DNA from: Schmidtea polychroa | Lineage: Eukaryota | DNA: 64,000 nt | NCBI GenBank assembly: GCA_044892525.1 | Contig: CM097885.1 | Span: forward strand, 7,876,001 to 7,940,000 | Direction: 5' to 3' | In this document: positions 10,442 to 63,756 of the stretch, in pieces | Numbering within the stretch: position 1 is the first letter of the stretch | How the letters are laid out: every line of letters begins with the position of its first letter | Program-made: the position numbers and the translations under genes | Notes under the pieces: generated by a model | Databases searched by the model: none | What the model saw: only the letters and a program-made list of their open reading frames with translations | Told to the model about the DNA's origin: nothing

Positions 10442-10747
10442 AGAGTAATGATACTACTGTTTAATCATTATTGAAATTTGAACCAAAGTTGATATTTGAA
10501 ATGAAACTGAATTGCCATATAAATCTTTACGAATACCCACATCGTATTTCATCATGCTGTTATATGTTGCCTCACAACTACCGTACATCGTATGACCACG
10601 CATTAAAGCGCATAACTGTGTAGCTAATTGATCAATTGGAATTGTCTCGTACAAAGTTAGAAAATAACAATTTGCATTTGATCTCATCTGATCTGAGAAA
10701 ATATTACTAATTCCAGCCATTGCACATGAAATATTTTTCTTTACCAT
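10442..10747 (-). pseudogene. Chimeric ORF: proteasome alpha3 (PSMA4)-like fragment fused in frame to actin fragments
   Basis: aa1-57 NISCAMAGIS..NIFSDQMRSNANCYFLTLYETIPIDQLATQLCALMRGHTMYG resembles alpha3 [55 protein letters not shown]. Then EATYNSMMKYDVGIRKDLYGNSV matches actin [23 protein letters not shown], and STLVQISIMIKQ*YHYS resembles the actin C-terminal STFQQMWISKQEYDES. Confidence 0.7.
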
Positions 10748-12030
10748 TCCTCATCTTTGTAAGTCTTTCTTCCTTACGATTATGTTAACAAATATTTGAT
10801 CATTGAAAATAGATCTGTGAAATGTTCAGCAAAATCAAACTTTTCTTTTATTCATTTGAAATTTGTCAGAAAAGAAAATAAAATGTAATCGGTCTAAAAA
10901 GCCTCAAAATTTTCATTTCTCAATTGCAGTATTTAAAACAAAGGGAAATTGCAATAGAGTATGATCCGATCATCCGCTGAACTAATGTTTTTAGAACAAA
11001 AATCATTGAATCTGCAAATTTTCATGAGTCTAGACTTTTGACGGTTTCTGCCTATTAATCGTCTGCGGCATAGGGGAAATAGTTCAATAGATGACAGGCA
11101 TTAGTTTACTTTTATAATATTATTTGTTTGTTTAGTGAACCAATATACCTGAATACTGAGTCGAGAGCCAGTTTAATTTTCATTTCCTATATGTAAAAAT
11201 AATTCATTTTAGAGAAATAGTTAAATACTTATTTTTTGAAGCCTTATGTTATAGTGATGGATCAGTTAAACAGTAATGAGAAACCCTCTTACATATATAT
11301 TGAGATGATATATATATATATATATAGACGGTAAAAGGATAAAAGGATAACAGAAACCATAATGTCTTTGTCACTAAAAAGTACATGAGTAAAAACAAGC
11401 AATTTTTTTCTTATCCCCCAAAAATGTATTTCTAAGAGAAATATTTATGAAAAATTTGTATAATTGTCTTTTAGTTCTTCTAGACTCCCGATAACGAAAA
11501 TATAAAATATAAATCTTTATAACATGCTTCTTGCTATTTAGCTTAAAGTCAAACTTGATTAAAAATTAAATTTTAAAAATCTAAAAATTATTGTTCTCAT
11601 CTGAATTTGCAGTCGACTGTCAAATTATATTATTTTCAATCCACTTTAATTTATCTTCAGAGAAATTTATTTATATAATTATAAATATAAATAAAAATTA
11701 ATAAGATAATTACTATTATTATTATTACACATATGGTGGTCCACGAGACTAAATATAATGGGGTAAGTGAGACATGACATGCATGTCTCATGGCAGCTAA
11801 CATGTTAAGAAGAAAAAAATGAGAATTTTCGATTATGAAATCCACCTCTTTAATCTGCATAAGAAAATATTTTGAATGTGAATTTGAAAATGTTGATCTT
11901 TTATTTTTGAATTTTCTGCCTTTTTATTGGATTTTTATTTAATTTTGAAATTCAAATTTTTATCAAAAATGAACTTTTACAACTTTATTTATTATTTATG
12001 ACAAATTTTCTTAATATCTGCAATCCTTGT

Positions 12031-20115: not shown

Positions 20116-20898
20116 GAGGTAGTCCCCGACTTACGACCGTTCGACCTACGACTAATCGGGCTTACGACCATTTTTTTGCAATTTCTTTCATAGAAAATAC
20201 TTAAAGAAGACAAATATGTAGTTGCGGGGAATCCCTAAAATATATGAAAAATATTTAAAAAAAAACAAAGTAAAAAAAAATCGATTTACATACATATCGA
20301 CTTACATTATATTAGCTGAGTCGGAATTTTTTTAAGTGAATAATTTTATATCATCCCAAAAATGGCTGCAACTAGTAAAACTAGTAAAAATAAAAGAAGT
20401 GTTATAGACTTGGAAACCAAACATAAAATAATATTACAATTTGAAAGTGATAAAAAAGTGAAAGATATAGCACATGATCTTAAACTGTCTCATTCGACAA
20501 TATCGACGATTTTAAAGGATAAAAAACGAATTTTGGAAGCTATAAAAGAATCGACATCTATGAAATCTACAATAATAACCAAAAATAGAAATGGTCCCAT
20601 ACATGATATGGAAAAACTATTAGTGATTTGGATGGAGGATTTGATTCAAAAACGAATTCCTCTAAGTCTCGCAATTATCCAAACCAAAGCATGTAGTCTT
20701 TTCATGATGTTTAAAATTAAAGGACGGTAAAAACTATGATTAGACTTTTACTGCAAGCCATGGTTGGTTTCAAAGATTTAAAAAAGACAACTAATTTTTA
20801 AATGTAAAAATTGGTGGAGAAATTATGTAAAAATTATGAAATTCGACTTACGACCGATGACCAGGAACCTATCTCGGTCGTAAGTCGGGGAATACCTG
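20116..20898 (+). mobile_element. Internally deleted Tigger/pogo DNA transposon
   Basis: TIRs gaggtagtccccgacttacgac / gtcgtaagtcggggaatacctg with TA on both sides; contains a CENP-B-type transposase N-terminus. Confidence 0.92.
20362..20790 (+). pseudogene. Tigger transposase N-terminal fragment (psq-type HTH + CENP-B HTH), no DDE domain
   Basis: KRSVIDLETKHKIILQFES..IAHDLKLSHSTISTILKDK..MEKLLVIWMED..IPLS..IQTKA; after a frameshift FTASHGWFQRFKK. Confidence 0.9.
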
Positions 20899-26939: not shown

Positions 26940-28478
26940 TTAATATACCTAAAGATAAAATCTTGAAAGCCATTTCTAGAATTCCTGAAATAAATTACAT
27001 AAAATAAAATCCATTTTCGCATAAATGGCGAGTCACAAATAATTGATGTACACACCAACCACCATTATAGAAATCGCATCTCAATGGTTTCTGGTTTAGC
27101 AAAATAATGAATCCCGCATACGCTCATCAAGACATAGACGCAAGAAAATTTATCAATTATATGTACATTATCCTTAAGAGAATTGCAGTAGTTAACATAT
27201 AACATTATGTCAAAAACAGGAATTTTATTAAAATTTCCTGCTTAGAATAGAAACTTATGACGTTCAAAGCTGTTTATGAAAATAATTCTTTATGCTATGT
27301 GTTTTGTGGATAAATATTAAATAACTTAGATATTATCAGATACTTTTCCGTGTTGAAGGTCAAAGGAGTTAAAATATGCCCAGGTCTTCTAAGGGTTTTT
27401 GAAATTAGTTTACATATTTTTGAAATCTTGGATGGTAGATCGAGTTCTTCTAACATCGGTCTAATAAATTTTCACATTAACGACATAACTTGTTCGTTGG
27501 TTCGTTTGTGGAGAAAGCAAGGTATTATTACACAGATTCATATAATTCAAGGATAAAATCTTTTATAACAACTCTCTCTCGCTCTTTATCCATGTTCTTT
27601 TTGATACTCAATTCACGTGAATAATCAAAGCGGTTACAGCGAGACTTATTTTATCTGCCTATGATGTTATCATGTTATTCTGTCTATATATGTTATTCAA
27701 ATTATCAAATCTAAATTATAAACTATAACGAACCCATAGGTTTACTATATGGCAACCTAAATAATGGTACTGGAAGGTATCTTTGGTCAGATATTACTAT
27801 TTCTTTCATTTCTTTGGTCAAATTATGGTTAAAAAATCTATTAGATTACTATTAGATTAACCGTTAAATACTTTCACTGCACCTCAGTGGCTATTTTAAA
27901 TTTATATTTTTGCAATATTTGAATTTATTTTAATTGAAGATTTTGTGTTCTTTGATGAGTGAAGAAATACATATGTTCTTTTAAAAAAAGATTATCCAGA
28001 TCTGCATTAAACTTATATTGGAACTACTGTAGTGCAAGGAAAATGTTTGTATAACAACATTTATGTCATATAAAATGATATAATTTCTAATGCAGACTAG
28101 TTACGAGTTTATTAACCAATCACCAATGTTATATATGAAAATTGGTTATACTCTGTGTTAAACACAATCATACTGCTATCAGGTATGCTAATCTAGTCAC
28201 TACATCATCAGACCATGTTTGCATTTTAAATCTTCAAATAATCAAATACATATTTATAATATTAATTACTTTTAATAATAATGTTTATTTCAGGGGGCTA
28301 AAAATAATTTAATTAAGTCAAAAAAGAAAGTCTTAACGACGATTCGTACGTCACCATTATGTAATGTTTTTTGTAAAAAGCTTTTTGATAATTATTCAAT
28401 TTATAAATAAATACATTGTTTCGACCAGTCAGAGGGGGATTGCCTCTGACTGGCAGTTTGTTGCATGCTTCTTTTGGT

Positions 28479-28542
28479 TCGCGTCTGTGTGCGCGGTCTG
28501 GTTTTGTTCGAATATTGTTGGTGTGCGCACACAGACGCGAGA
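28479..28542 (+). promoter_or_regulatory. Inverted pair of the CGCGTCTGTGTGCGC motif upstream of cassette 1
   Basis: tcgcgtctgtgtgcgc (28479-28494) and gtgcgcacacagacgcgaga (28523-28542); the same motif occurs six times upstream of cassette 2. Regulatory role inferred from position. Confidence 0.55.
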
Positions 28543-28672
28543 AGTAGGTAATTTCTTGGGTTATTGTAATTTTTGTGATATTAATTTTTGTAGAAATTAG
28601 ATTTGATTTTGTCGTTTGTTTTATTGATTAATTTTGGAATTCGGGAAGTGTGGAATTTAAAAGAGCGAAAAT

Positions 28673-29198
28673 ATGAAAGCGAAGATTGTGGAAAATGAAA
28701 AGGGATTATTCCAAGTCGAATATGCATTTAAGGCAATGGCATTAGATGGATTGCTTTCCGTTGGTATTCGAGGCAATAATTGTAGCTACACAAAGAAAAG
28801 TTCCAGATAAAATGATTGAGAAGAGTTCAGCTACAAGATTGTTTAATATTACTGAAATTACTGGAGGTGTTATGATTGGTATGATCCCTGATTGTCGATC
28901 TCAAGTATGTCGTGAACAAGTGGAAGCAGCTCGATTTAAATCTAAAATTGGATATGCAATGCCTTGTGACATAATATGTCGTTCTACTGCGGAATTTGTT
29001 CTATTGTTCGATCAACTCTATACCCAATCGGCTGAGATGCGACCATTAGATCCTGATTTCATTCAATTTCGGCCAAGGAGGGCATTATCTCATGATATTG
29101 AAATGGACAAACTATTATTATTCAAAACTGATCCACGTGGCCCTGTAGATGCCAATAAAATTGTTATACCATTTCTTGGATTTATTTGTTTTTTGTAA
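28673..29198 (+). pseudogene. PSMA6: Truncated, frameshifted proteasome subunit alpha type-6 (alpha1) fragment with a foreign N-terminus
   Basis: ATG 28673 gives MKAKIVENEKGLFQVEYAFKAMALDGLLSVGIRGNNC. An 8-nt deletion relative to copy 2 shifts the frame to ATQRKVPDKMIEKSSATRLFNITE..YTQSAEMRPL..KTDPRG; homology stops after KTDPxG. Confidence 0.88.
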
Positions 29199-29329
29199 AA
29201 AGCTTTTTGATAATTATTCAATTTCTAAATAAATACATTATTAAAATTCCATTGATATTTCCGAATACAGACCAACTGGAGTTGGAGACTTATAAGTACA
29301 TATGCTACCAACCTTACAAGACGTTGAAA

Positions 29330-29745
29330 CAATTCTAAATATAATCCTATTTATATGTTTAAGGATATTATGGTTGAATTCTCTGAAACCTTCAGAATAA
29401 GGTAATATCAACACATATTTTGATCAGTGTGCTTAGATCGAATTTTTCACCTTCCAAACTTGACAACATATTAACATCAACAATATATTCAATATCCATT
29501 CATCAACGGTCTCTTTAGTCATGTACTCTAATAAAGATTTAGAATATCCATTTTTAAGAAGCAACACAACCAAAGAATCAATACTTTTCACTGAATTGAT
29601 AAACGTGGATGATAAAGACCATGCACAAGAAACTAATCCTCTCACCATATTTCGCTTGTATTTATATTCACAAAAGCTCTCAGTAGTATAAAGACCAGTA
29701 TCAGTCGCTTTTCTTTATATTTCAGTCTGATAGTCTTTTTTATCG
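29330..29745 (-). mobile_element. Penelope-like RT thumb/linker fragment
   Basis: KATDTGLYT..SFCEYKYKRNMVRGLVSCAWSL..LLKNGYSKSLL..YVLILPYSEG, typical of the PLE post-RT region. Confidence 0.75.
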
Positions 29746-30843
29746 TTACGTCAAATTATATTACAAATACTATAATGAAATTTTCACCATCACCGAAAAG
29801 TAGTAAATGTAAACTACAAATGGTAATCCCCATTTTGAATGACCTTTAATGTGAAACAATAAAGCCAATAAGGTTTCAGTTTCATAAATTGAGTTGTTTA
29901 AAAAAGCAATTGTATATCATTTAAACAATTAAATAAAATAAAATTTAAAATTATTTAATTTTATTAATTTAATCGATAATTTAGGAGAAAATATTAAATA
30001 TTTCACGAAGAATTTTGTATTAACGAGAACAGTTTCACCTCGGAGAGTATAAAATTGAAACTAATCAAATCACTAGAACTAGTGATAAATTCTCGTTGCA
30101 AATATGTTAGACTAATTGAGTGTTTTGGGAAATTTATTCGGGAGAGGAATAATATCCTGTAAATGGATGCCCCCATTTTTGTTATTGATTCATTTGTCGA
30201 GTAATAATTTGAAAATGCAAAAAGAAAAAAACAAAATTTTGTCAATTAAAAGAATTGATACAGATGCAATTGATAAAACATATCCATGTATAACTTTCCG
30301 AGTTAATTCTACATTTTTTTGTTTAAAATTCATTTTCATCCTCATTATATGTGATTATTATCAAAATGGAAACAAATAGTTTTTTATTATGATAATTACT
30401 AAAGAGAAAATTGAAATATAATTTGTTTTAATGAGTATTTTATTCAATTATTTTTTAAAACAGAAATTTTAAAATTTCCTATAATTTTCTTTATATAAAT
30501 ATGATAATCATTAACAAATATTTTTTCACTACTTTGAAACAGAATTAAGAATAAAAATAAAAATTTAATTTAATTACAGATAAAAAAAATAAACTAATAT
30601 TAATAATTTTAATTCGTTATATTTTATTTATATATTTTATTGACACAACTGACAAAAATTTAAAAATATATATTTTTATTCATAAATATTTCTTTTAAAT
30701 CAGCGTAAAATACAAAAGTAATGTAAATTTTATAATTTAAATATAGAAAAACATTGGAGAGATCTGATTCGTTAGTTGTTAGCCAATGAGATTATTTTTT
30801 GAAAAATTGATAAATTTACACTTTTTTTATTGGGATCATTTAC

Positions 30844-31248: not shown

Positions 31249-31311
<63 letters not shown>

Positions 31312-31319
31312 TATAATTT

Positions 31320-31547
31320 TATAAGAACTTCTTTCAATTTCCACCACTGATTTCTTTTCAATTGACATTATATTCATTAAAAAATTGACTATGAATCAGT
31401 AAAGATATCGATGTTCACGAAGGCTGTCCCGAATTCGTGAATATAAAAAAAACATCGATATCTTTACTGATTCATAGTAAAGTTTTTTTAATAAATGTAA
31501 AGTCAATTGGAAAGCAATCAGTGGTGAAAATTGAAAAAAGTTCTTAC
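31320..31547. mobile_element. Fully palindromic family B element at the start of the intron
   Basis: ~95-bp imperfect arms (taagaac...atcgatg / catcgat...gttctta); degenerate loop; flanked by aataataataattataa on both sides (TSD-like). Confidence 0.8.
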
Positions 31548-32296
31548 AATAATAATAATTATAAATATAATAAAATATTAACTATTTTCTCATGTATGTA
31601 TATAATTTTGTATATTATTTTCTGAAATGTAATTTATTTCAAAATTCATTAAAATTGTGTCAGATAGAACTCATTTTTTTGATCTTTTGTCGGAAAGAAA
31701 GTAAATGAATTCTCATAAAAGGAAAACAGATCAAAGTTGACCAAAAAACAGTTTAAATATCGATACAATTTAAACAAAATAATTTAAAATCAAAAATTTT
31801 AATTTTAGCGTTCAATAGAATAGATGAAACCAATTTTTTTTAGAATTTTGATTGATTAAAACAAATTTTAAGTAGAAAAAAATTAATCAGATGTCGTTAC
31901 AATCTTTTTTTTGTCAATATAGAAATATCAGTGTAAATCTCTTGATTCGACGAAAGACTCGTTTGAGAGCTAAATTGTGCGAGATTGACGGTAGCGATTC
32001 CGATGCAATAAATGTCAGCTGATTAATGCATTTGATGTTCATAATTTTCAATTTAAATACTTTTAAACAAAAAAATGAAAATTAAATTTTCCATAGAAAT
32101 CTAATTCCATGCATTTGCTTTTTATTGAACGGTACGGAAATGAAATTCATTGATTTACAATTAAGATTATCTAAAAATCAAATGATTTTGATGAATTAAA
32201 ACAAAACTGAAAATGAATAAAAATGAATTATTATTATTTTGAAACATAACGTTATTCACATGGTGATTTATTATATTTATTATTGTGATGATTACA

Positions 32297-36881: not shown

Positions 36882-38645
36882 TTAAGAAATCGGGACTAAA
36901 ATTAACCCTTAGAAATGCGAGTTCTTAGTATCTGAGTTAAAGTTTCTTGGACATATAATTAATGAAAAAGGTACTATAACAGATAATTCTAAGATTGAAA
37001 CAATTAAAAATGTAAAGCAACCTAATCGTGTGAAACATATTAGGAGTTTATTAGGATTGTGTGATTACTATAGAAAACGTTTGCAAAACTACTCAAAAAT
37101 AGCTAGGCCATTGGAATCTTTGATTGGAGGTAAAAACAAAAGTATTGTTTGGACATCACAGTGTGAAAAAGCTTTTGATGAGTTAAAACATAGTTTGATC
37201 AGTCCACCATTACTATGTCATCCGGATTTTAATAAAACGTTCATTTTAGATACCGATGCTAGTTTCGATTGTATTGGTACTGTTTTATCGCTAAGAGATG
37301 ACAATAATGAAGAAAAGATAATCGCATATAGGTCATAAAGTATGCATAAACATGAAATTCGGTACTGAATAACAAAAAAGTATTATTATCTGTTTTCCAT
37401 TTTATACAGCATTTTAAACATTATCTCTACGGGAAAATAATTATTTTAAGAACTGATCATAAGGCAATCACATTTATGTTAACTACAAATAAACCAATCG
37501 CCGCTCAGTTTCAAAAATTGGATCAATTTTTTAAGTATTTTGGACATGAAGTTAGAATATCGCAAAAGCGAGAAACACAGTAATGTGGACGCACTATCAC
37601 GACTGAATATCAAAAATTGCACACAATGTCAGATGAATCATATTGGTGCTAAAGCAGAAAAAATTAAAATGTTAGCAATGTCAATAGAAGATCAAACATT
37701 TAAATGACAAAATAATTCTGAAGATATAATGGAAATAAAAGAAAACATTCAGAACGGCAAAACTGAAGATTCTTATGTGGACAATGGAACTATTATGACT
37801 CATAATAATAAAATATATATTCCTTCATATAATTAAAATGATTTTATACCAGAAATCCATAAAGAATTGTGTCATGCAGGAATCAACAAAACGACAACTT
37901 GTTAAATTTGCCAGAAACATAAAACATTCATTAGGAAAACAAAAGAAGTTATTGAAAAGTTTATTGCATATGAACCGTTTGAAAAATTATATATTGATTT
38001 TTGTGGCCTCTTTAAAATGACACCAACTTGCAAAAGATATGTGATGGTTATAATAGATTATTTTAATAAATATATATAGTATTAAAAGCTGTGAGAACAC
38101 AAGAAGAAAAGACATTAGTTAATAATGTGAAAAGTTCGTGAATATTGAAGTTTGGACCGTCAAAGGAAATTCATATCGATAAAAGAAAATGTTTCGAATC
38201 CCAAGTTTTTAAAAATATGGCAGTAAAGTATCACTTGAAGATAGTTTATTCAGGTCCTTGTCATCATCAATCTATTGGACAAATTGAAAGACAATTTAGA
38301 ACGCTAAGAGACTGGATTTTATGCTGCCTGGTAGTGAAACAATTTAAGACATGGGAATTAAGACATATAGAATTTGCAATGAATTCAATAATGCAGTCAA
38401 GTATAAAAGTTAGTACTGTTGAAGTAATAAATAATTATAATCAAGAAAATCGAATACATTAATCTTTCAGAGTCGGTGAATTGGTACTCGTCAAGGATGA
38501 TATCAGAAACAAACAAGATAACATGTATTGCGGATCTTTTGAAATAATGGAAAAATACAATGAAAATAGTTATTTATTAAGGAATACTGATAATAAATGT
38601 ATTACTAGAAATGTGGAATGGCTAAAGCCATTTAAAACTAGGGGA
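36882..38645 (+). mobile_element. Decayed Ty3/Gypsy pol (RT C-term, RNase H, integrase)
   Basis: KFLGHII, RSLLGLCDYYRK, LLCHPDFNKTFILDTDASFDCIGTVL, LRTDHKA, NVDALSR, HKELCHAG, PFEKLYIDFCG, GQIERQFRTL; RT-RH-IN order; many stops and frameshifts; PPT-like aaaactagggga at the end. Confidence 0.93.
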
Positions 38646-38883
38646 TGTGATGTAATTATAATGGAATATTTGATTTCCCTAACCTCTACTCTATATTATG
38701 TAATGCCTGCATGTGTGATTGATTATTTTTGACTGCCTGGGACTTCAAATTATGTCACTGTTTATTATTTCCCAATAAGATATTGCTGATTGTGTTGGTG
38801 TCGGCACACCGAATACTATACATTGTGCTATAATTTCTTAAATAAAGTTTTTGGAATGTCTAAAATTATTGTTATTCTTTACA
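38646..38883 (+). repeat. Putative 3' LTR of the Gypsy element
   Basis: Begins TGTGATG directly after the PPT, contains AATAAA, ends TTTACA. Confidence 0.65.
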
Positions 38884-38939
38884 TGTTGTGCGCGATGCTT
38901 TTGAATATTTATCACTATTTATCATAACCCTAATATATA

Positions 38940-39062
38940 TTATTTATTAAAAAAATTGATTATAAATCAGTTAAGATATCGATGTTTTTTGATATTCACG
39001 AATCTTTACTGATATTTACTGATTCATAGTAAATACAATAAATACAATGTCAATTGAAAAGA
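38940..39062. mobile_element. Partial family B element abutting cassette 2
   Basis: tatttattaaaaaaattgattataaatcag..atcgatg..tcacgaat..tttactgattcatag..aataaatacaatgtcaattgaaaaga. Confidence 0.7.
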
Positions 39063-39599
39063 TTATAGAAAAGAAAAATATAGAATATCAATTTTATTGT
39101 CATCAACAGAGCCACTGGGATCAGTTTTGAATAATAACGGTTTGTCCATTTCAATATCATAAGATAATGCCATCATTGAACAACCTAATGGTCGCATCTC
39201 AGCCGATTGGGTGTAAAGCTGATTAATATCCGCAATACAACGACATATTATGTCACAAGGCATTTCATATCCATCTTTATATTTAAATCGAGCTGCTTCC
39301 ATTTGTGCACGACATACTTGAGATCGCCAATCAGGGATCATACCAGTCATAACACCTCCAGTACTTTCAGTAATATTAAACAATCTTGTAGCTGAACTCT
39401 TCTCAATCATTTTATCTGGGACTTTTCTTTGTGTAGCTACTACATCACAATTATTGCCTCGAATACCAACGGAAAGCAATCCACCAAATAAATTTGATAT
39501 TAGTTGGCCAAAAACACCATTGACGTTATCAGATTCAAAAGACCATTTATCCTCGATTATATTGTTTGATTCATAAATTTCTTCATTAAAAGCAGCCAT
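39063..39599 (-). pseudogene. PSMA6: Open 178-aa chimeric ORF: 38-aa foreign N-terminus + proteasome alpha type-6 (alpha1) fragment + foreign tail; expressed status unknown
   Basis: GGLLSVGIRGNNCDVVATQRKVPDK..VMTGMIPD.RSQV.RA..EAARFKYKDGYEMPCD..IADINQLYTQSAEMRPLGCSM..KTDPSG matches alpha1. Lacks the N-terminal FDRHITIFSPEGR motif and the C-terminal third. Confidence 0.85.
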
Positions 39600-39744
39600 A
39601 TTTTATCGGAAGCACATAAACTCCAAAAAACCGAAATCGATAAGTAAATCTTACACCCAATCACACCATTAACAATCAAATTTTTTAATCTAAAAAATTA
39701 CTACAAAAAACACAACTAACAAAATAAATTGCCATACCTCTTAC

Positions 39745-39969
39745 TCGCGTCTGTGTGCGCACATCCATATTACCATAATTCTGCACACAGACGCGAGAAC
39801 ATTCAACAAAACATACTCATAAATCTTCACAATTCTTTACTCGTCTGTGTGCGCACAGAAACCAAAAACAAAGATAAAGGCGCACACAGACGCGAGATAA
39901 ACCAACAACCCGACCATTTTACGCGTCTGTGTGCGCACACAACCCAAACAAAAACGCACACAGATGCGA
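39745..39969 (-). promoter_or_regulatory. Array of six alternating-orientation CGCGTCTGTGTGCGC(AC) motifs upstream of cassette 2
   Basis: Copies at ~39745(F), 39783(R), 39841(F), 39880(R), 39921(F), 39955(R) with divergent spacers. Regulatory role inferred. Confidence 0.6.
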
Positions 39970-40805
39970 CAAACTAATAATTTACCAATAAATACAATGT
40001 CAAATACAAATGTCAAAGTTTTTATAATGTACATACTATTTTCTATAGATATGATCTATTCAGTTCACTCTTTATTGTTTGAACTGTAAAATAATTTGAC
40101 CTTGAACATGAAAATAAATAAAATAATCTTACATTACAATATTTAACAGCACAACACCAAAATAATAAAAGTGGTAATAAAAAAATAATTAGCCGTAGCA
40201 TTATTATTGGTATAAATAGAAATATTGTAAAAGGAAGCACAATTTTACAACAATTTAATATTTATTCTTTATAAATTTCAAACAATTCCTAAATTCTAGG
40301 AATATATGTATAAATTTAATTAAATTCTTACAAGAGAAACTTTTCTTTTGTATATTATGGGAGAAAATAAAATTGGTTTTGGGAATTATTTATGCTGTTA
40401 TTTTTGATAATATTTATTATCCGTCAGTTGCGAATCTCCTATATTCTCAAGCTGGACAATTTTCCAACATGAACTGACTGGATTAGAACTAGCTGTTATA
40501 TTTATTTTTAAAATAAATACTAAATAAATACTAAAAGAGAATTATAATAATTTTCCTTTTGTCGAAATTAGTTGTTAATCTCTTCTAATAAATGGAAGAT
40601 TACCATTCCCATAATTTAAATCTAATTTGGAATTTATTAAGGATTTGAAATTATAATACCGTCACAGTTGTTCACGTAGCGGCATCCTTTTTACATGTCT
40701 TTCTGGGATCTCTCATATCAATCTTAATAATCGTTTACACAAAACAATCAGTGAAACGTATTTTATTAAGCTTCCGTTTCTGTAACACAATATGATTATC
40801 TAAAT

Positions 40806-41181
40806 AAAAATTGCAAAAGAAAAAACTTTTAAAAATCTCTAAAAATAACTTTTATTATTTCCATTTAAATTAAAATAGAAAATAAAAAAATATATAAAAA
40901 ATATTATTTTAATTGGAAATATTAAAAGAAATTTGATACATTTCAAATAATTATAACTGTAAAAGATATTATTATATGATTAACATTATAAATATGTTAA
41001 CATGTAATATGTTAACATATAATATGTCAATGTTAATCACTTACTTGATTATTGTATATTACAATAACAAATTGATGGAAAATTCATTATGTATGCATAA
41101 TATTTTAAATTATTTTTATATACAGTTACGGTATATTTAATAACAAAACAAAATCTAAATTTTAGGATTTTTAAAGAAAGT

Positions 41182-41223
<42 letters not shown>

Positions 41224-41752
41224 TGAAAAATAATAATAATAATAATAACATCTCCCGCGAGTGTTAATAGGTTTAAATCTAGTAATGATATCTAATTTTT
41301 AAAATTATTTTACGATGAGTCATGTCTTTGTTCATTAAAATGTCTTTGTTTAAAATGATGAGTCACATAAAAATTGCAAAAGAAGAAACATTTAAAAATA
41401 TCTAAAAGTAACTTTTATTATTTCCATTTTATTATTTTATTATTTCCTAAAATAGAAAATAAAAATATATACAAAATATATTATTTTAATTGGAAATATT
41501 AAAAGAAATTTGATACAAATATTTATAACTGTCAAAGATATTATTATATAATTAACATTATAAATATGTTAACATGTAATATGTTAACATATAATATGTC
41601 AATGTTAATCACTTACTTGATTATTGTATATTACAATAACAAATTGACGGAAAATTCATTATTTATGCATAATATTTTAAATTATTTTTATATACAGTTA
41701 CGGTATATTTAATAAAAAAACAAAATCTAAATTTTAGGATTTTTAAAGAAAG
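40806..41752 (+). repeat. ~375-bp direct duplication (40806-41182 and 41369-41752) around a ~185-bp spacer
   Basis: Both copies run from aaaaattgcaaaagaa to ttttaggatttttaaagaaag with few differences. Confidence 0.92.
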
Positions 41753-43061
41753 CTTTCTCAATTGTTTATTTTGCATATTCTGATAACAACGATTTTATGC
41801 AAAACCTCTGACAAATTGAGAAAATGATAACATCAAATATATTTTGAATTAACTTTCATAGAAATTCACATCAATTTAGAAACATTTTAGTGTAATTGAA
41901 TGTTACAATACAATTGGGTTACCATGAACGCTTTGTATTATGAAATGAAATACTTTGCCTATGATCAGATTTCTTAGACTTTTTTCACCATTTCCTCTTG
42001 ATTTATGATGTTTAAACTGTTTACTCGTTCTTGCAGTATTCCCAAGAAATTTGGCATTAAGATTCGCATTAGTAGTAGTATTTTTTATATTTTGAAAATA
42101 ATAATTATTCAATAACAGTATTTAACCTAATTTTTTTACTTCTATTTGTACCAAAAATTTAGGATCAGCCAATAAACATTTAAAGAAAGGTTTGCAAAAT
42201 GAAAGTCAAATGGAAAATAATTGACCAATGGGGAAGAAGATAAAAGAATTTACTGATATTTAAGGTTTTTACCTACATAATGAAATGCATAATGATAAAT
42301 AATTTAAAATCATACGCGTGTTGAATAATTTGTAAACGTAAAAAAAATATGTTAAAATGGTATGAAATGTGATAAGAAGGAAAGGATTTATTATTTAAAT
42401 TCAATTTTCTAATTTGCTAGTTAAATTTAATTATTTATTAATTAAAGAATATTTTGACAAAACTAATCAACAAACGAGAAGGAAATAAATATCGTCAAGA
42501 TGGATAAAAATATATATAGGAATTAATATAAATTATAAATTAATTATAAATAATATATAGAAATAAATTACTTTATAATGTAAAAATGAGTCAATCTATA
42601 TGGTAACAGGAAATATGTCATTAAATAATTATATGGAAAGAATCAAACTAAAAAATAATATTATTGAGAATGTATAAATTGAAGAGAAATAAAATGTTAA
42701 TGCAAAGAGAGAGTGCAAAGAAATCAAAAATTAGAAATTCAAACAAATTCAGAAAATTTAATAAAAATTTGAAAAATGGTAAGAGCAATATTTCTGATGG
42801 TGAAAAGTATGATCAGATGGCAAACAATAAGATAAGCATAAATATGCATCCGTTTGCATGAAATAAAAACGTTTATAATACAGGTTGTTGTACAAATATG
42901 TAGATGACTCACAATTTGTCATTAATTATTTTCATTCATATTATCAATTTGTTTTTATTTGGATTTAGAATAAGTTTTAATTATTTTAAACTTAATTTTA
43001 AATATTAAATTTTAAATATTAATTTTAAATATTAATTTTAAAATGACAAATATTTATTAAA

Positions 43062-50027: not shown

Positions 50028-50328
50028 GTGAGTGTCATGTACAAATTGTCTGTTTTTAGCACATTGAATATGGAAATGATGGTGGCCGGACAAAATGTCG
50101 CGGACAAAATGTCGTGCACAATATGTCATGGACAAAATGTCGCGGAAAAATGTCGTGGACAAAATGTCATGGTATAAATGTTTTTGATAATATACCATTG
50201 CGACATGTTGAGTGTGATCAGTAACTTTGCGACCAATACCCATATGGGGACAAAATATTTTGTCGGATAAACTCTGAGTATGTATATTTTGTCCACGACA
50301 TTTTGTCCGTTACATTTTGTCCTAGAAT
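50028..50328. repeat. Tandem ggacaaaatgtc(gc) 14-mers with an inverted block; foldback/MULE-like subterminal repeats
   Basis: About six forward copies at 50088-50170 and three reverse copies at ~50287-50321. Confidence 0.7.
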
Positions 50329-51317
50329 CAAAATGATATATGTTAACGGTTATAAACAAAAAATATTATTTTTTCAGCGGTACTCAACAATTAAAGAAAT
50401 GTTACACTAAACACTCGATCTTAGCTAGCAAAATGAGTATAAAGTCAAACACATTTTAACTCGCTTATGACCATTAAAGAGTTAAATAAGAAAAAGAATG
50501 GAAAGTGAAGTGCTACTGATATTTGCATGTATTTTAAATATAGGTAGTTAAATTATTATAGATTACTTTATTATAGAATCATTAAGGAAATTGGTAACTT
50601 TAGTGATGACATCTCATGGGTAAAATTTAAAGTGACAAGGAACTTAATTTAGGATATTGAACCCAAGCTTATAGAGAAAACTCAGTACACTCAGAGGTTA
50701 AACCGAGATACCAAAATCATTTATTAGTTAGAATATCACTGGGAGGTTTATAAAAAGGCGGGATTTTGAATTATATGGGAATTGATGTAATGACTCCTTC
50801 ATGCGTCCAATGTATTAAATGTGGCTAAAATGTAATAAAAATAATTCAAATCTAATTTCAAATAAATCCTTAACTATAAATAATTAAAAATTATTTAATT
50901 TTATTATTATTCGCAGTTCTCTGTTGAAATGAAATGAAAAATTCCTAATAATAATGAACATTTTTAAAGAATCCCTGGGAGAGGTCCATTAATCTATTTG
51001 TTAATGATATTCAAAATATATTTTAATAAATGTTTTAATTTATATTTATTTTTATCGATCTTTAAAATTGCACAATGGGGCATCTCGAAAATAACAATGA
51101 AATCGAAATTGAGATACAATTTATAATTGACAGGATAAAGATCTAATAATTATTATAATTATTATTAACTGATATTATATTCTCCTCTTTGAAAATGTAT
51201 TTAATAATCAAATAAACAAATCAGATTCAAGATAAATGAATAATGTAAAATGATAGAAAATTATGATAATTATAATAATTAAAGATGCAAAACTGATGGT
51301 AATGAAACAATATTTAG

Positions 51318-51497
51318 GTTATGACAGATCTGTTCCAGGAATGGAAAGGTTGAACATTATTGGCGATGCTAGCAAAGGAGAGCACAACTTACAGATATTA
51401 AACATTCAACCGGAAGATAGTGGAGAATACGAGTGTCAAGTTCAGCCGGTTTCCAGACATCCTTTATTAAGAAAAAAAGCACAAGTTACAGTTCATG
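51318..51497 (+). CDS. Second coding exon of the nephrin/Kirrel-family gene (completes Ig domain 1)
   Basis: Acceptor tttag|gt at 51317 restores the Gly split at 31246; YDRSVPGMERLNIIGDASKGEHNLQILNIQPEDSGEYECQVQPVSRHPLLRKKAQVTVH (DxGxYxC); donor G|gttggt at 51498, phase 1. Confidence 0.92.
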
Positions 51498-52119
51498 GTT
51501 GGTTGATTTTATATTAAATTTAAATTTAATTAAAACATTTAATTAATTTAATTAATTTTAATTAAACATTAATTATACATTTAATTATACATTTAATTAA
51601 ACATTGAAAAACCCAACAATAAGGAATATCCTATTGAAAGGGTTTATAGTGCTAACGGTAGACATTTATCTATTTAGGAAGTACTAGCAGAACTTTATAC
51701 ATTGTCGCTTTAGGTATTATACTAGTATTATAATAGGCGACATAAGCAGCTATCTAGAGAAGCGGCAAAATTATGAAAAATTAAAGTTTAAAAATATTTT
51801 TATGCTATGAAAGTTATTTGTTGTGCTTCGTGCTACTAATATCACTTTTTATGATGCCACTCGTGCCCCATAATTTCATCAGGTTAGAAAAAATTGATTT
51901 AAAGAAATGTATAATAAAATATGTACAAAAATATGTATTTATGTACAAAAAATCTTATTACATCAATATTTTCGCGTCTTCTGCTCAAAGATGTCTGGGG
52001 CTGACTGTCTGTATACTACGTTTTATGAATGTATCAATATTTCTTTATTTTTTATTATTTTAATTTCATGGAAAATATATTGGAAAATAATATAATTAAT
52101 ATTTATTAAATAGTTAAAC

Positions 52120-55266: not shown

Positions 55267-56589
55267 GCACTATTTACTTGAATTAGACACGAATGGTTTT
55301 CTCTCGCTTATAATATGTAAATCCTTTAGAGTACGGTAATATCAATACAAATTTAGGCTCATTGTCCTTACATTAACTATTAAATCTATTTACTTAACCC
55401 TCTACTTATTCGCACTACTTAAATTACACTCATTCTCATAGAATTTATAATAAATTTATCAACAATTTCTTTATTCATTATTAACCCTTTCCTATCTTGT
55501 GTCTATAAAAATATGACAAAAAAATTAACCATTCTATCCTCTGTCTGTAAAAAATTATATTACTGATGGTGATAATGACCATGAAAATGATATACAAGAT
55601 GCACAGTTGAGCACTGACGATGATGACGATAATTCTTTTTAATTTTTAAAATTTTTTAAAATTTTATTAGGATCGGAACGGGCCGGACACATAAAATAAA
55701 GAAGATAGAAAAGGGTTAATAAAAATGAATTTAAATTCTTAATTGACAACCTAACCAATTTTTCAATAATTTTACTGAATTTTTACACGTTTTTCTTTCT
55801 GGCATATTTTAATTTACTTTGTCTTTAATTATCATGGTTTATTAGGTCCTTGATCAATAATTTCATTTATTTAAACACAAATTTTCATCATAACCTTTTT
55901 TCTATTTTATCCAAAATATATGTATAAAATAAAAAAATTTAAATTTGATTTTAAAAATTTTGTAAACATTATTCTAATAATAATTATTATGTTATTTTTT
56001 AGTACATAACTGTAACAGTCTGCAACATTTTAAATTATTCGATTAAACGATTTTAAGAAATTCATTTTATTTTCTTAAGATTTTCTTAACATTTAAAATA
56101 ATAGAATTATCTAAAATATTTAATTATTAGTAAAAGAACTTGTCATAAGACGGTTGTATAGCGGCCCATAAAAATAATAATAATAATTGTGTTCTTTCAG
56201 TATACTCAATGATTTGAAAAAATCGAAGAATTGATCTTAATTTCCAGAAATTTATTTTAATTTGTTTCAACTCATGTAAATGCCACATACTTTTTAATTT
56301 TTGATATGAAGAATTTTTTTAATTTTAAATGAAACTCGGGCTCAAGAAACATTATATCATTTAATTATTACATTATATAAAAGTCATTAATTATTCCACA
56401 TGCATTAACTTAATGCTCATTTAACGTTTGAGAAATTAAATTTAATAAATAATTAAATTAAAGTTTATTTGATAACATATTTGCTAGGATTATTAAACAA
56501 AATTTAAAATTAAATTGCTAAATTCTAATAAAATAAATTTTCAATATTTAATAAATTTTATATTATACCATATAAAAGTTGAAGTAGTA

Positions 56590-56636
<47 letters not shown>

Positions 56637-56784
56637 CTTGCACTATCCAGTGAAAAATTGCATGATGCATTGACATTATGTATAATAACAGTTGTCATGA
56701 GAATGTTGGTTTGCAACTTAGCTATACTAGTATGTGACTGTAATAATATAATATACATAACGGTACCAATGTCAACAAAATTTA
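55267..56784 (+). repeat. Donor copy of a ~1.5-kb inverted duplication
   Basis: Near-identical reverse complement at 60485-62078; differs mainly in (TA)n length. Confidence 0.96.
55485..55715. mobile_element. piggyBac-type MITE (duplicated at 61633-61860)
   Basis: TTAA both sides; TIR ccctttcctatctt / aagatagaaaaggg; internal Asp-rich codon remnant like a piggyBac acidic N-terminus. Confidence 0.8.
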
Positions 56785-58199
56785 CGGTTAATATTTTAAT
56801 TTTAATATGGTAATTTTAATTATTTTAATTAAACATTATTTTTGATATTTTTAGATATTTTAAATTTGTGAAAGTTATTTAAATTAAACAATAATATATA
56901 TTCATATAAATATTCGAAAATATTTTCTTATTTCATGACTTCTCCCTTTTCTTTTTTTATGGAAGCTATCCATTTTACTTGTATCTGGGTACTTTGTTTT
57001 TATCTGTATTATAGACATTCTCCATTTTCTATGACAAAATTAATTTGAATTGTTCAACAGAGATATTCTAAAAAATATTTAAAAATCTTTATAACGACGT
57101 CTGGAACATCTGATGTGCTTATATATTTCGTTTATTAAATATTTTTAATTTATTTTTTTCGAGTGTACCTTAACTTTTGCTAATTTTTCATTATAGTAAT
57201 TGTTTGTTGTGGTTACACTGCGAGTTCTTTTGTTTTCAGTGACCTACTTTATTTTTTTAACCTTGTAAAACTTCCATGCTTAATACTTCGAACCTTTTCA
57301 ATTGAAAGAAGGCAATGCTATCAGAGTAAGTATGTATATGTTTTAAATTTTTTTAAATTTTTAAAAATTTTTTTTTTTTATATGTTTTGAATTATTTTTT
57401 TTTATATTATATAATTTTTTTAGTGTATCTTAAGATTTGGAATTCGGTATATCTGTTGATTTCAAATGTGACCTACATAACGTTACATTTGACCTAATTT
57501 TTTATTTATTTTTAAATGTAATCTACATAATTTTATTAGTAAATAATGAAAATAGATTATTATTTAAAATTTATTTATTTAAATTATGTAAAAATTTTAA
57601 TGAATTTCTAATTTCTATTATTATTAACAGACTGAAATATTTCTTTCAAGTGTAAAACAAATTATAAACTTATTATTTGTTTTAATGTGAAGATATTCAA
57701 AATAATTCTGTTAGATATTTTATATATAACTCTCTTAAAACAAAATTTATAATATGGAAATTATTAGCAAATCTCAAAAGGTAATTTTGCTTAAATGAAA
57801 CTCTTGAAACATCATAGTAGCTAAAGTTACATGTAAATCAAGCATTATTTTATGCCCGCAAAAAGGATATCAAAATGATCAAATAAAATTTAGTATTGGC
57901 AAGGAAATATTCAACAACATCAGTGAAAAATATTTTTGTGTCAATAACTTTTAAGGGAATTACTGAATTTATACATAAGGAGATTTTATTTAATACCAAT
58001 CCCAATTGTTATAGAAATTATTTCTAGGTAATTTATTTGTTATTATAGAAAGTCTGTATAATAGATTCCATCAAAGGAGAATAAGAATAAGATCAAAATA
58101 TTATTTGAATTAAAAATAAATTCTTTTTAAAACTGTTTAAAAATATAATTAAATTAATTTTTGATAAATTGTTGACAGTGGAATAATTAAAAATATAAT

Positions 58200-60317: not shown

Positions 60318-62243
<1,926 letters not shown>

Positions 62244-63367: not shown

Positions 63368-63600
63368 TTAATTAAAAACATTCAACACACAAGTATTCAC
63401 TGCATTCTGCACATTGATTTTAGGATTAAAGGTTCTTATCAATAATGCTTCACATATCACACGCTCAACACAATTATCAAACTTTTTTGATAAGATTTTA
63501 AAATCAGACATTCCTAATTCTCTCATACACACTTTATTGTGATCCTTAATATTGGACACTCCCTTCGGTCGACAGTGTTCTTGAACTTGAGTACAGAGAT
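63368..63600 (-). mobile_element. PLE GIY-YIG C-terminal fragment
   Basis: NIKDH..ICEALLIRTFNPKINVQNAVNT; same family as 52120. Confidence 0.75.
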
Positions 63601-63756
63601 GACACGTGAATCAATATTCAACGAAAAAGGAAGTTGAGAACAAATAATTTCAAAAAATAGTAATATATAAAAAATATATATATAATATATATAATATATA
63701 TAATATATAATATATATAATATATATAATATATATAATATATATATAATATATATA

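What the first reader, a model, noticed from the sequence alone, without database searches (positions are those of the whole stretch)
39745..39969. CpG-rich alternating-orientation motif array with variable spacers
Seen: six copies of a 15-18-nt motif in strict F/R/F/R/F/R order, forming three ~80-95-bp units whose spacers have diverged while the motif is kept, within a CpG-poor background. Cassette 1 keeps one F/R pair. Each pair can fold into a hairpin, and the core includes TGCGCAC, which fits the metal-response-element consensus TGCRCNC. Inference: a conserved binding site for a dimeric factor (transcription factor or transposase), or an RNA hairpin signal.
Basis: partly seen in the sequence, partly recalled or inferred. 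Interest (0 to 1): 0.7.

Follow-up and report, generated by a model that had tools for sequence, protein, structure and literature searches.

The report
Promoter repeats of gene-capturing retroelement
The repeated motif is real, but it is the conserved front end, probably the promoter, of an abundant flatworm jumping element that carries stitched-together pieces of host messenger RNAs, not a metal-sensing switch of a host gene.

Summary
The array is real: six arms at 39744-39970 form three inverted pairs, and a fourth pair lies at 28479-28540; shuffles give none. The background is GC-poor, not CpG-depleted. Both arrays lie 135-148 bp upstream of an ATG that opens an intronless mosaic frame ending in a proteasome alpha-6 fragment. 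Both cassettes stop 8 nt past an AATAAA and are flanked by long duplications (56 and at least 17 bp). In two public runs, array and proteasome piece are about 10^3 times deeper than the unique flank. Other copies differ in unit number, spacers and upstream gene modules (one is SNF8/EAP30). Arms are kept in sequence without compensatory changes, loops are unrelated, and the metal-element match is missing from 3 of 8 arms. One adaptor-tagged cDNA end lies about 6 nt before the ATG. Best reading: sequence-specific promoter repeats (U3-like) of a retroelement that captures host mRNA by template switching, probably a relative of the BEL/Pao LTRs noted elsewhere in this genome. The LTR tests on these two copies fail (no TG..CA ends, no short duplication), so membership is unproven; a Penelope-type terminal repeat is the main rival. 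New variant of a known kind; moderate interest.

The parts
39920..39970 (-). Cassette 2, unit A: inverted pair of arms with a 17-nt loop (one arm has a single substitution)
39838..39896 (-). Cassette 2, unit B: inverted pair with a 25-nt loop (3' arm 2 nt shorter)
39744..39797 (-). Cassette 2, unit C: inverted pair with a 20-nt loop
39600..39743 (-). T/G-rich, C-poor leader from the last arm to the ATG; homologous over its length to the cassette 1 leader (64%); holds a possible 48-nt GT..AG mini-intron at 39737-39690; adaptor-tagged cDNA end at about 39604 in one contig of run X13
39063..39599 (-). Open 178-codon mosaic frame: module 1 (codons 1-21), module 2 (about codons 23-42), proteasome alpha-6 fragment (39482-39093)
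39093..39482 (-). Intronless proteasome subunit alpha-6 fragment, residues 35-164 of full-length P0029 at 81.5% identity
   Evidence: exon-limited matches
39085..39098 (-). AATAAA (39098-39093) and the point 8 nt further where homology between the two cassettes ends
39037..39053 (-). 3' copy of the 17-bp flanking duplication, part of a MITE-like repeat that reads through it once in 4 other copies aligned
39987..40003 (-). 5' copy of the 17-bp flanking duplication
28365..28420 (+). Cassette 1: 5' copy of a 56-bp flanking direct repeat (54 of 56 identical to the 3' copy)
28425..28453 (+). Cassette 1: perfect 11-bp-stem hairpin at the 5' end, absent from cassette 2
28479..28540 (+). Cassette 1: single inverted pair of arms, 16 bp perfect, 30-nt loop, same polarity to the cargo as in cassette 2
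28541..28672 (+). Cassette 1 leader; possible 46-nt GT..AG mini-intron at 28548-28593
28673..29167 (+). Cassette 1 cargo: ATG, about 10 codons unrelated to cassette 2, then a longer proteasome alpha-6 piece, at first in frame, broken by an 8-nt gap relative to cassette 2; AATAAA at 29154-29159
29187..29242 (+). Cassette 1: 3' copy of the 56-bp direct repeat

Best explanation
The array is the element-borne, sequence-specific cis module, most likely promoter/enhancer repeats, of a high-copy retroelement family of a planarian-like flatworm. SHOWN: the array is followed by a shared leader and ATG, then by a mosaic of intronless host mRNA pieces; the family is abundant; unit number, spacers and cargo modules vary between copies while the arms stay fixed. 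INFERRED: a host (or element) DNA-binding protein reads each arm, several arms add up, and transcription starts just before the ATG, so that array plus leader behave like the U3 of an LTR and ATG-to-AATAAA like a long R. Reverse transcriptase switches onto co-packaged host mRNAs at short shared words and so swaps the cargo. The two copies here would be U3-R pieces, that is the 3' end of the element's RNA, set down by a non-integrase route (target-primed copying or repair capture). That would give one fixed 3' end just past AATAAA, ragged 5' ends and long target duplications. Odds by layer: part of an RNA-mobilised, gene-capturing family about 0.9; array acts as promoter-type binding sites about 0.55; carrier is an LTR element (BEL/Pao-like) about 0.45.
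For: Abundance: summed contig depth over arms is 972-1024 times (run X1) and 1804-4301 times (X5) that of the unique flank, the proteasome piece 1406 and 3474 times, the leader bin between them only 2-3 times (not a copy number; one single 122-nt contig has depth 1863 against 34 for a flank contig). Variable unit number and spacers: joints 39809>39746, 39933>39866, 39954>39876/39880, 39895>39972. Module swapping: loose ends at 39440 (runs X1, X5, X8) match, by my reading, the SNF8/EAP30-to-proteasome junction of P0025/P0031; further switches at 39475, 39532, 39538. RNA origin of cargo: two long contigs at single-copy depth match only 39130-39270 and 39271-39419, the second with an intron-like 3' end at 39419, while the cassettes run through. 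Shared leader and ATG context (64%, 0 of 500 shuffles). Shared 3' end 8 nt past AATAAA; another copy goes on with a G/T-rich run. A loose end at 39604 in X13 that I recognise from recall as a cDNA template-switch adaptor. No compensatory pairs. Precedent: microsimilarity switches and multi-gene chimeras in LTR elements, one by a Pao element (PMC5131818, passages); U3-R ends with variable duplications in LINE-copied HERV-W (PMC5016936, passages). Unchecked earlier notes describe BEL/Pao LTRs with host-mRNA mosaics in this genome.
Against: Neither cassette has TG..CA ends with a 4-6-bp duplication near its boundaries, nor a primer-binding-site-like word. No poly(A) tail is left, which the LINE-copied HERV-W model expects (5-15-bp duplications there, 56 bp here). 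No Gag, ubiquitin or Pol link was seen: the search for longer fused proteins gave 1 hit among 43 candidates, an ordinary proteasome subunit, and the cassette does not match the windows of the earlier BEL/Pao notes by sequence. The start-site evidence is one contig of a run from a differently labelled organism (B), in a variant whose frame continues differently and which may be a host gene; the adaptor identity is recalled and two papers checked did not print it. A possible mini-intron in both leaders would put the start further upstream. No binding protein is identified.
Confidence: 0.5

Rival explanations
1. The array lies in the pseudo-LTR of a Penelope-like element and acts as promoter or as the cis signal for mobilisation in trans; host sequence is captured behind the first codons of the element's own frame.
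For: In rotifer Penelope elements the pLTR holds the first 12 codons of the ORF (22 with the tail), may start with an 18-38-bp palindrome, and mobilises unrelated sequence in trans (PMC3846280, parts 1-2 of 5). Here about 10 and 21 codons precede the first switch, cassette 1 starts with a hairpin, and both leaders hold a possible retained mini-intron (post hoc pattern, 0.3-0.4% of shuffles; the two are homologous, so one observation).
Against: No second repeat at the 3' end; no hammerhead core in either cassette on either strand and no Rfam hit; duplications in that paper are 8-10 bp; Penelope-mobilised genes there keep introns, whereas this cargo has lost them.
Confidence: 0.2
2. The array is an internal, transcribed promoter or RNA hairpin in the 5' region of a LINE or SINE-like element (like mouse L1 monomers); cargo came by template jumps during target-primed reverse transcription.
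For: Fixed 3' end, ragged 5' end and long duplications suit target-primed insertion; unit number varies; spacers and leader are strongly strand-biased (C 4-9%, T 44-48%); planarians have many NeSL/R5-type LINEs (PMC4640811, passages).
Against: The one tagged cDNA end lies downstream of the array; no poly(A) or short 3' repeat tail; no compensatory base changes; multi-gene mosaics joined at short shared words are better documented for LTR elements.
Confidence: 0.17
3. The arms are transposase or Rep binding sites at the end of a DNA transposon or Helitron that captured gene fragments.
For: Alternating subterminal motifs are typical of CACTA/hAT ends (own knowledge); Helitrons capture host fragments (PMC6431247, passages); cassette 1 begins with TC and a hairpin.
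Against: No terminal inverted repeats and no motif at the other end; duplications of 56 and 17 bp; cargo lacks the parent gene's introns.
Confidence: 0.08
4. The array is a host enhancer, such as clustered metal-response elements, controlling a nearby or proteasome-like gene.
For: 5 of 8 arms contain TGCRCNC; the cassette 2 frame is open for 178 codons.
Against: The 7-mer is missing from 3 arms and occurs at 16 other sites; the array is part of a family about 10^3-fold deeper than unique DNA; the two cargo copies differ by 11 nonsynonymous and 1 synonymous change in 70 codons, and both lack the C-terminal third of the subunit.
Confidence: 0.04

Closest known systems
LTR-mediated retroposition in metazoans (PMC5131818; passages)
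   Same: Partial, intronless host mRNA pieces, sense-oriented, often in frame, several genes in one chimera, joined at short shared words, able to multiply further and transcribed from the element's promoter.
   Different: There the retrocopy replaces internal sequence between two LTRs and numbers are small; here the cargo follows the promoter module directly, no flanking LTR pair is seen, and the family is very abundant.
BEL/Pao LTRs holding host-mRNA mosaics, as noted earlier in this genome (e1-7907883, e1-7907913, e1-8073268, e1-8072467; unchecked AI notes; Flow/BEL families in planarians: PMC3118150, passages)
   Same: Size (766 and about 930 bp against 873), leader plus ATG plus in-frame mosaic of spliced host pieces, swapped N-terminal modules.
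   Different: Different cargo, no sequence match to those windows, no ubiquitin or Gag link and no clean solo-LTR ends here.
LINE-processed HERV-W pseudogenes (PMC5016936; passages)
   Same: An LTR element's RNA end (U3-R) inserted without U5, with a variable-length target duplication.
   Different: Those have poly(A) tails, a TT/AAAA site and 5-15-bp duplications; here no tail and 17-56 bp.
Penelope pseudo-LTRs of Adineta vaga (PMC3846280; parts 1-2 of 5)
   Same: Promoter region plus first 12-22 codons, 5' palindrome, capture of host DNA in trans.
   Different: No flanking pair of repeats, no hammerhead, much longer duplications, cargo without introns.
Metal-response element (TGCRCNC, bound by MTF-1; own knowledge)
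   Same: 7-mer match in 5 of 8 arms; clustered, in both orientations.
   Different: The conserved unit is 13-18 bp, the match is dispensable in 5' arms, and the array belongs to a mobile family.

Membership tests
LTR of an LTR retrotransposon (BEL/Pao-like) | TG..CA termini with a 4-6-bp target duplication | tested here: not met
   Scan of both ends of both cassettes: none for cassette 1; for cassette 2 only two 4-bp hits reaching far outside the cassette. Duplications are 56 and at least 17 bp.
LTR of an LTR retrotransposon (BEL/Pao-like) | Primer-binding site after, or polypurine tract before, the repeat | tested here: not met
   No PBS-like word found by a simple pattern; none expected for a lone or truncated LTR; a polypurine tract was not scanned for.
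LTR of an LTR retrotransposon (BEL/Pao-like) | Two direct copies flanking Gag/Pol in full-length elements | not testable with these tools
   No whole genome is held for this window; the longer-protein search found no fusion, which is weak evidence.
LTR of an LTR retrotransposon (BEL/Pao-like) | U3-R-U5 order: promoter, start site, poly(A) signal, G/T-rich downstream part | tested here: inconclusive
   One tagged cDNA end about 6 nt before the ATG, AATAAA near the 3' end, G/T-rich continuation in other copies; single contigs, adaptor recalled.
Template-switch retrocopy chimera | Intronless, partial host mRNA cargo in sense orientation | tested here: met
   Proteasome alpha-6 residues 35-164 without interruption; single-copy-depth contigs match exon-sized blocks that abut at 39270/39271.
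Template-switch retrocopy chimera | Pieces of two or more genes, joined at short shared words | tested here: inconclusive
   Several modules shown; a shared word at the 39475-39483 junction was read by eye from the two loose ends; parent sequences of modules 1 and 2 were not identified.
Penelope-like pseudo-LTR | Hammerhead ribozyme motif (recalled as typical) | tested here: not met
   No CTGANGA..GAAA core on either strand of either cassette; no Rfam match in the window.
Penelope-like pseudo-LTR | Repeats on both sides of the mobilised sequence | tested here: not met
   Motif only at the 5' side.
Penelope-like pseudo-LTR | Contains the first 12-22 codons of the element's frame and a 5' palindrome | tested here: inconclusive
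   About 10 and 21 codons before the first switch; hairpin in cassette 1 only; origin of these codons unknown.
LINE-mediated processed copy | Variable-length target duplication and ragged 5' end | tested here: met
   56 bp and at least 17 bp; 5' ends differ.
LINE-mediated processed copy | Poly(A) or short-repeat 3' tail | tested here: not met
   None at either 3' junction.
TIR DNA transposon subterminal repeats | Terminal inverted repeats with motifs at both ends and a short fixed duplication | tested here: not met
Metal-response element cluster | TGCRCNC core kept in every site | tested here: not met
   5 of 8 arms
Metal-response element cluster | MTF-1 binding and metal inducibility | not testable with these tools
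   needs bench assay

The most novel reading that the evidence does not exclude
A family of hundreds to thousands of mobile expression cassettes keeps a fixed promoter array while swapping, in frame, pieces of housekeeping mRNAs (proteasome alpha-6, ESCRT-II SNF8 and others), and the element's RNA end is itself spread by a second, non-integrase machinery. The family would then be an exon-shuffling and ectopic-expression device, and a possible source of small RNAs or truncated proteins aimed at protein-degradation and sorting pathways. Both ATG-to-proteasome frames in the window are in register (1 in 9 by chance) and the two patches inserted in cassette 1 add 12 and 18 nt, but amino-acid sequence is not conserved between the two copies (11 nonsynonymous, 1 synonymous).
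Probability: 0.15. Interest if true: 0.75.

Novelty: new variant of a known kind. Interest (0 to 1): 0.45.

Why it matters
It turns a supposed host regulatory cluster into the cis module of an abundant mobile family, which matters for anyone calling planarian enhancers or motifs from open chromatin and for RNAi or expression work on the proteasome alpha-6 and SNF8 genes, whose pieces exist in many extra copies. If the promoter reading holds, a short, GC-rich, copy-number-variable array in an AT-rich genome is a directly testable planarian promoter element and a handle on how these retroelements capture and shuffle host mRNAs at scale.

Tried and rejected
No whole genome is held for this window, so no genome-wide motif scan. 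Rfam at gathering threshold: 0 matches in the window. Viral contigs: paired pattern 0, protein 0 confirmed of 4 candidates, 18-mer 1 match that I did not inspect. Metagenomes: 24 loci match the paired pattern, all on contigs of 59-76% GC with unrelated, mostly self-complementary loops; rejected as unrelated prokaryote-type hairpin repeats. The N-terminal 42 residues of cassette 2: no Pfam family at E up to 1, 0 hits among 1.84 billion representatives, 0 of 3 candidates among longer proteins; the Atlas gave proteasome N-terminal clusters at 0.91-0.94 with under 170 shared features for two of the three best, which I take as a context effect, since the loose ends show other origins. Longer fused forms of the proteasome piece: 1 hit of 43 candidates, an ordinary subunit. 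The flank of cassette 1 looks like a decayed Penelope RT/GIY-YIG frame that reads once through the 56 bp, but this label is recalled: Pfam gave nothing convincing, tblastn against another piece in the window only noise, the Atlas only leads at 0.86-0.88 to other retroelement domains. The run list named no holder on record as RNA, and X8 and X13 are RNA only by guess, so contig cover there is no evidence of expression; leader bins without cover in these runs say nothing. The bacterial promoter scan is not applicable. Earlier notes: no look-alike by place or sequence except one irrelevant bacterial hit. Print: the motif strings occur in 0 papers of the library; searches on planarian gene-capturing elements (listings, with passages read where cited) showed no description of this family. 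Repbase-type libraries and supplements were not seen and may hold it under a family name. The adaptor sequence was not printed in the main text of two droplet-sequencing papers.

Full report
Observation. CGCGTCTGTGTGCG with up to two mismatches occurs 8 times in the 64-kb window and never in 100 dinucleotide shuffles: six arms at 39744-39970 in strictly alternating orientation and two at 28479-28540. The arms form four inverted pairs with loops of 17, 25, 20 and 30 nt. Arms are 92-100% identical; none of 6 loop comparisons beats shuffles. The units have polarity: on the strand that carries the downstream frame, the second arm always holds the palindrome TGCGCA, the first usually not. The background is GC-poor but not CpG-depleted (observed/expected 0.97; array 1.54 at 45% GC). 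The metal-element consensus is in 5 of 8 arms and at 16 other sites of the window.

Context. Both arrays lie 135-148 nt upstream of an ATG, and the two leaders are homologous over their length (64%, 0 of 500 shuffles), T/G-rich and nearly free of C. Behind the ATG lies a piece of proteasome subunit alpha-6 (Pfam PF00227); the best named homologues are flatworm proteins, and earlier notes treat this genome as planarian-like. In cassette 2 the frame is open for 178 codons (39599-39066) and holds residues 35-164 of the full-length subunit P0029 at 81.5% identity behind 38 unrelated codons; in cassette 1 about 10 other codons lead in frame into a longer piece, and the frame is broken further on. 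Homology between the cassettes ends at the same point, 8 nt past an AATAAA. Cassette 1 is flanked by a 56-bp direct repeat (54 of 56 identical), cassette 2 by a 17-bp repeat that belongs to a MITE-like family and occurs once in the 4 other copies aligned, so both look like insertions with long target duplications. For cassette 1 this rests partly on my recalled reading of the flanks as one decayed Penelope frame, which Pfam and the Atlas did not confirm.

The family. No genome was held, so I laid contigs of 4 of the 23 listed public runs on 38880-40200 at 80% likeness. Summed depth over the arms is about 1000 times (X1) and 1800-4300 times (X5) that of the unique flank, over the proteasome piece 1400 and 3500 times, over the middle of the leader only 2-3 times. 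These are not copy numbers, since short overlapping contigs inflate the sums, but a single 122-nt contig alone has depth 1863 against 34 for a flank contig, and up to 82 contigs differ at one place of the array. Of 9 variable places listed inside the array, 8 are in spacers; the ninth is where the window's arm itself deviates (40 of 105 rows shown). Joints that go back or skip within the array show other unit numbers and other loops. Loose ends show swapped modules: at 39440 (5, 4 and 1 contigs in X1, X5, X8) the letters match, by my reading, the junction of two database proteins that fuse an SNF8/EAP30 piece to the same proteasome piece (P0025, P0031); further switch points lie at 39475, 39532 and 39538. 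Those proteins share with both cassettes a glycine where the five full-length subunits aligned have cysteine, which points to one captured ancestor. Two long contigs at single-copy depth match only 39130-39270 and 39271-39419, the second with an intron-like end at 39419, so the parent gene has introns that the cassettes lack: the cargo came through RNA. Between the two cassettes 70 codons differ by 11 nonsynonymous and 1 synonymous change: no sign of selection on the protein.

How the array probably works. The arms are kept letter for letter; 0 of 15 predicted pairs show a compensatory change, and the few changes break pairs (four similar units give little power). Loop length varies from 17 to 30 nt, which argues against one dimer spanning a pair and for independent sites that add up. 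One contig of run X13 ends about 6 nt before the cassette 2 ATG in letters that I recognise from recall as a cDNA template-switch adaptor (not verified in print). If that variant belongs to the family, transcription starts downstream of the array, which is then upstream promoter DNA. An RNA-mobilised element can keep such DNA only if it is also copied at the RNA's 3' end, as the U3 of an LTR or in a tandem or pseudo-LTR. The order array, leader, start, frame, AATAAA, G/T-rich run (seen in other copies) fits U3-R-U5 with a long R that carries the cargo. Template switching at short shared words, with multi-gene chimeras, is documented for LTR elements including a Pao element (PMC5131818, passages; PMC5470649, passages). 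Earlier unchecked notes report BEL/Pao LTRs with in-frame host-mRNA mosaics elsewhere in this genome, and BEL/Pao families are known from planarians (PMC3118150, passages). These notes changed my reading but are leads only.

What speaks against it. The direct LTR tests fail on these two copies: no TG..CA ends with a short duplication, no primer-binding-site-like word, no link to Gag or ubiquitin, no sequence match to the earlier windows. I explain this by taking them as U3-R pieces inserted without integrase, as known for LINE-copied HERV-W (PMC5016936, passages), but those have poly(A) tails and 5-15-bp duplications, and these have neither. The tagged cDNA end is a single contig from a differently labelled organism and may come from a host gene. 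Both leaders hold a possible 46-48-nt GT..AG intron right after the last arm (post hoc, 0.3-0.4% of shuffles), which would place the start upstream. That, the 10 and 21 codons before the first switch, and the 5' hairpin of cassette 1 recall Penelope pseudo-LTRs (PMC3846280, parts 1-2 of 5), the main rival, although no hammerhead core and no second repeat were found. A LINE-type internal promoter (PMC4640811, passages, for planarian LINEs) remains possible; DNA-transposon and metal-element readings are unlikely.

Comparison and novelty. It works like LTR-mediated retroposition with the cargo directly behind the promoter module; membership of BEL/Pao is not shown. The motif strings occur in no paper of the library, and eight searches on planarian or gene-capturing elements showed no description of this family; passages on Burro elements list other cargo (PMC6431247; PMC11410931), and a planarian promoter study names no such motif in the passages and the section read (PMC10558129; its motif logos are figures and supplements that I did not see). 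Repeat libraries were not available and may hold the family.

Verdict. Observation confirmed; interpretation partly supported. The array is the conserved cis module of an abundant, RNA-mobilised family that shuffles host mRNA pieces (about 0.9), probably promoter-type binding sites (about 0.55) of an LTR-type carrier (about 0.45). New variant of a known kind; interest 0.45.

Noticed in passing
window 39737-39690 (-) and 28548-28593 (+): Possible 48- and 46-nt GT..AG mini-introns at aligned places right after the last arm in both leaders; no splice joint among the 15 of 25 joints shown.
   Followed up: partly
window 28425-28453: Perfect 11-bp-stem hairpin at the very 5' end of cassette 1, absent from cassette 2.
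   Followed up: partly
window about 28980-29090: Two patches in cassette 1 add 12 and 18 nt net relative to cassette 2, each keeping the frame; they look templated from other sequence.
   Followed up: no
window 31298-31571 and partial copies near 2465, 6113, 14800, 22856, 25653, 33976, 38932, 43049: Palindromic MITE-like family of about 274 bp; very deep in all four runs laid.
   Followed up: partly
window 36913-38930 (+): Decayed Gypsy-like LTR retrotransposon piece (RT-RNase H Pfam hits) with a purine tract and probable LTR start near 38647, directly left of cassette 2; no link to the cassette seen.
   Followed up: no
window 29187-29800 (-) and 63368-63610 (-): Decayed frames resembling Penelope RT thumb and GIY-YIG (label recalled, not confirmed by Pfam or the Atlas).
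   Followed up: partly
window 55267-56806 and 60463-62078: Large, very young inverted duplication (935 nt at 100%, 436 nt at 99%).
   Followed up: no
window 40804-41755: Tandem duplication with period about 570 bp, 91% identical.
   Followed up: no
window 51257-51514 (+): Exon-sized immunoglobulin-domain frame (V-set/I-set), probably part of a host adhesion gene spanning the region.
   Followed up: no
window 20344-20730 (+): CENP-B/Tc5-type transposase N-terminal fragment.
   Followed up: no
window 10454-10750 (-): Frame resembling a decayed actin piece (recalled; no Pfam hit).
   Followed up: no
window 50087-50181 and 50286-50322: 14-bp tandem units with an inverted group nearby, another locally CpG-rich spot.
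   Followed up: no
L003-L007, L010-L015, L017-L021, L023, L024: GC-rich metagenome contigs carry dispersed intergenic-looking hairpin repeats with the same 11-12-bp arms and a 26-nt conserved loop, many in one assembly; unrelated to the finding but a REP-like family in its own right.
   Followed up: no
P0025, P0031: Database proteins that fuse an SNF8/EAP30 fragment in frame to the same proteasome alpha-6 fragment.
   Followed up: yes
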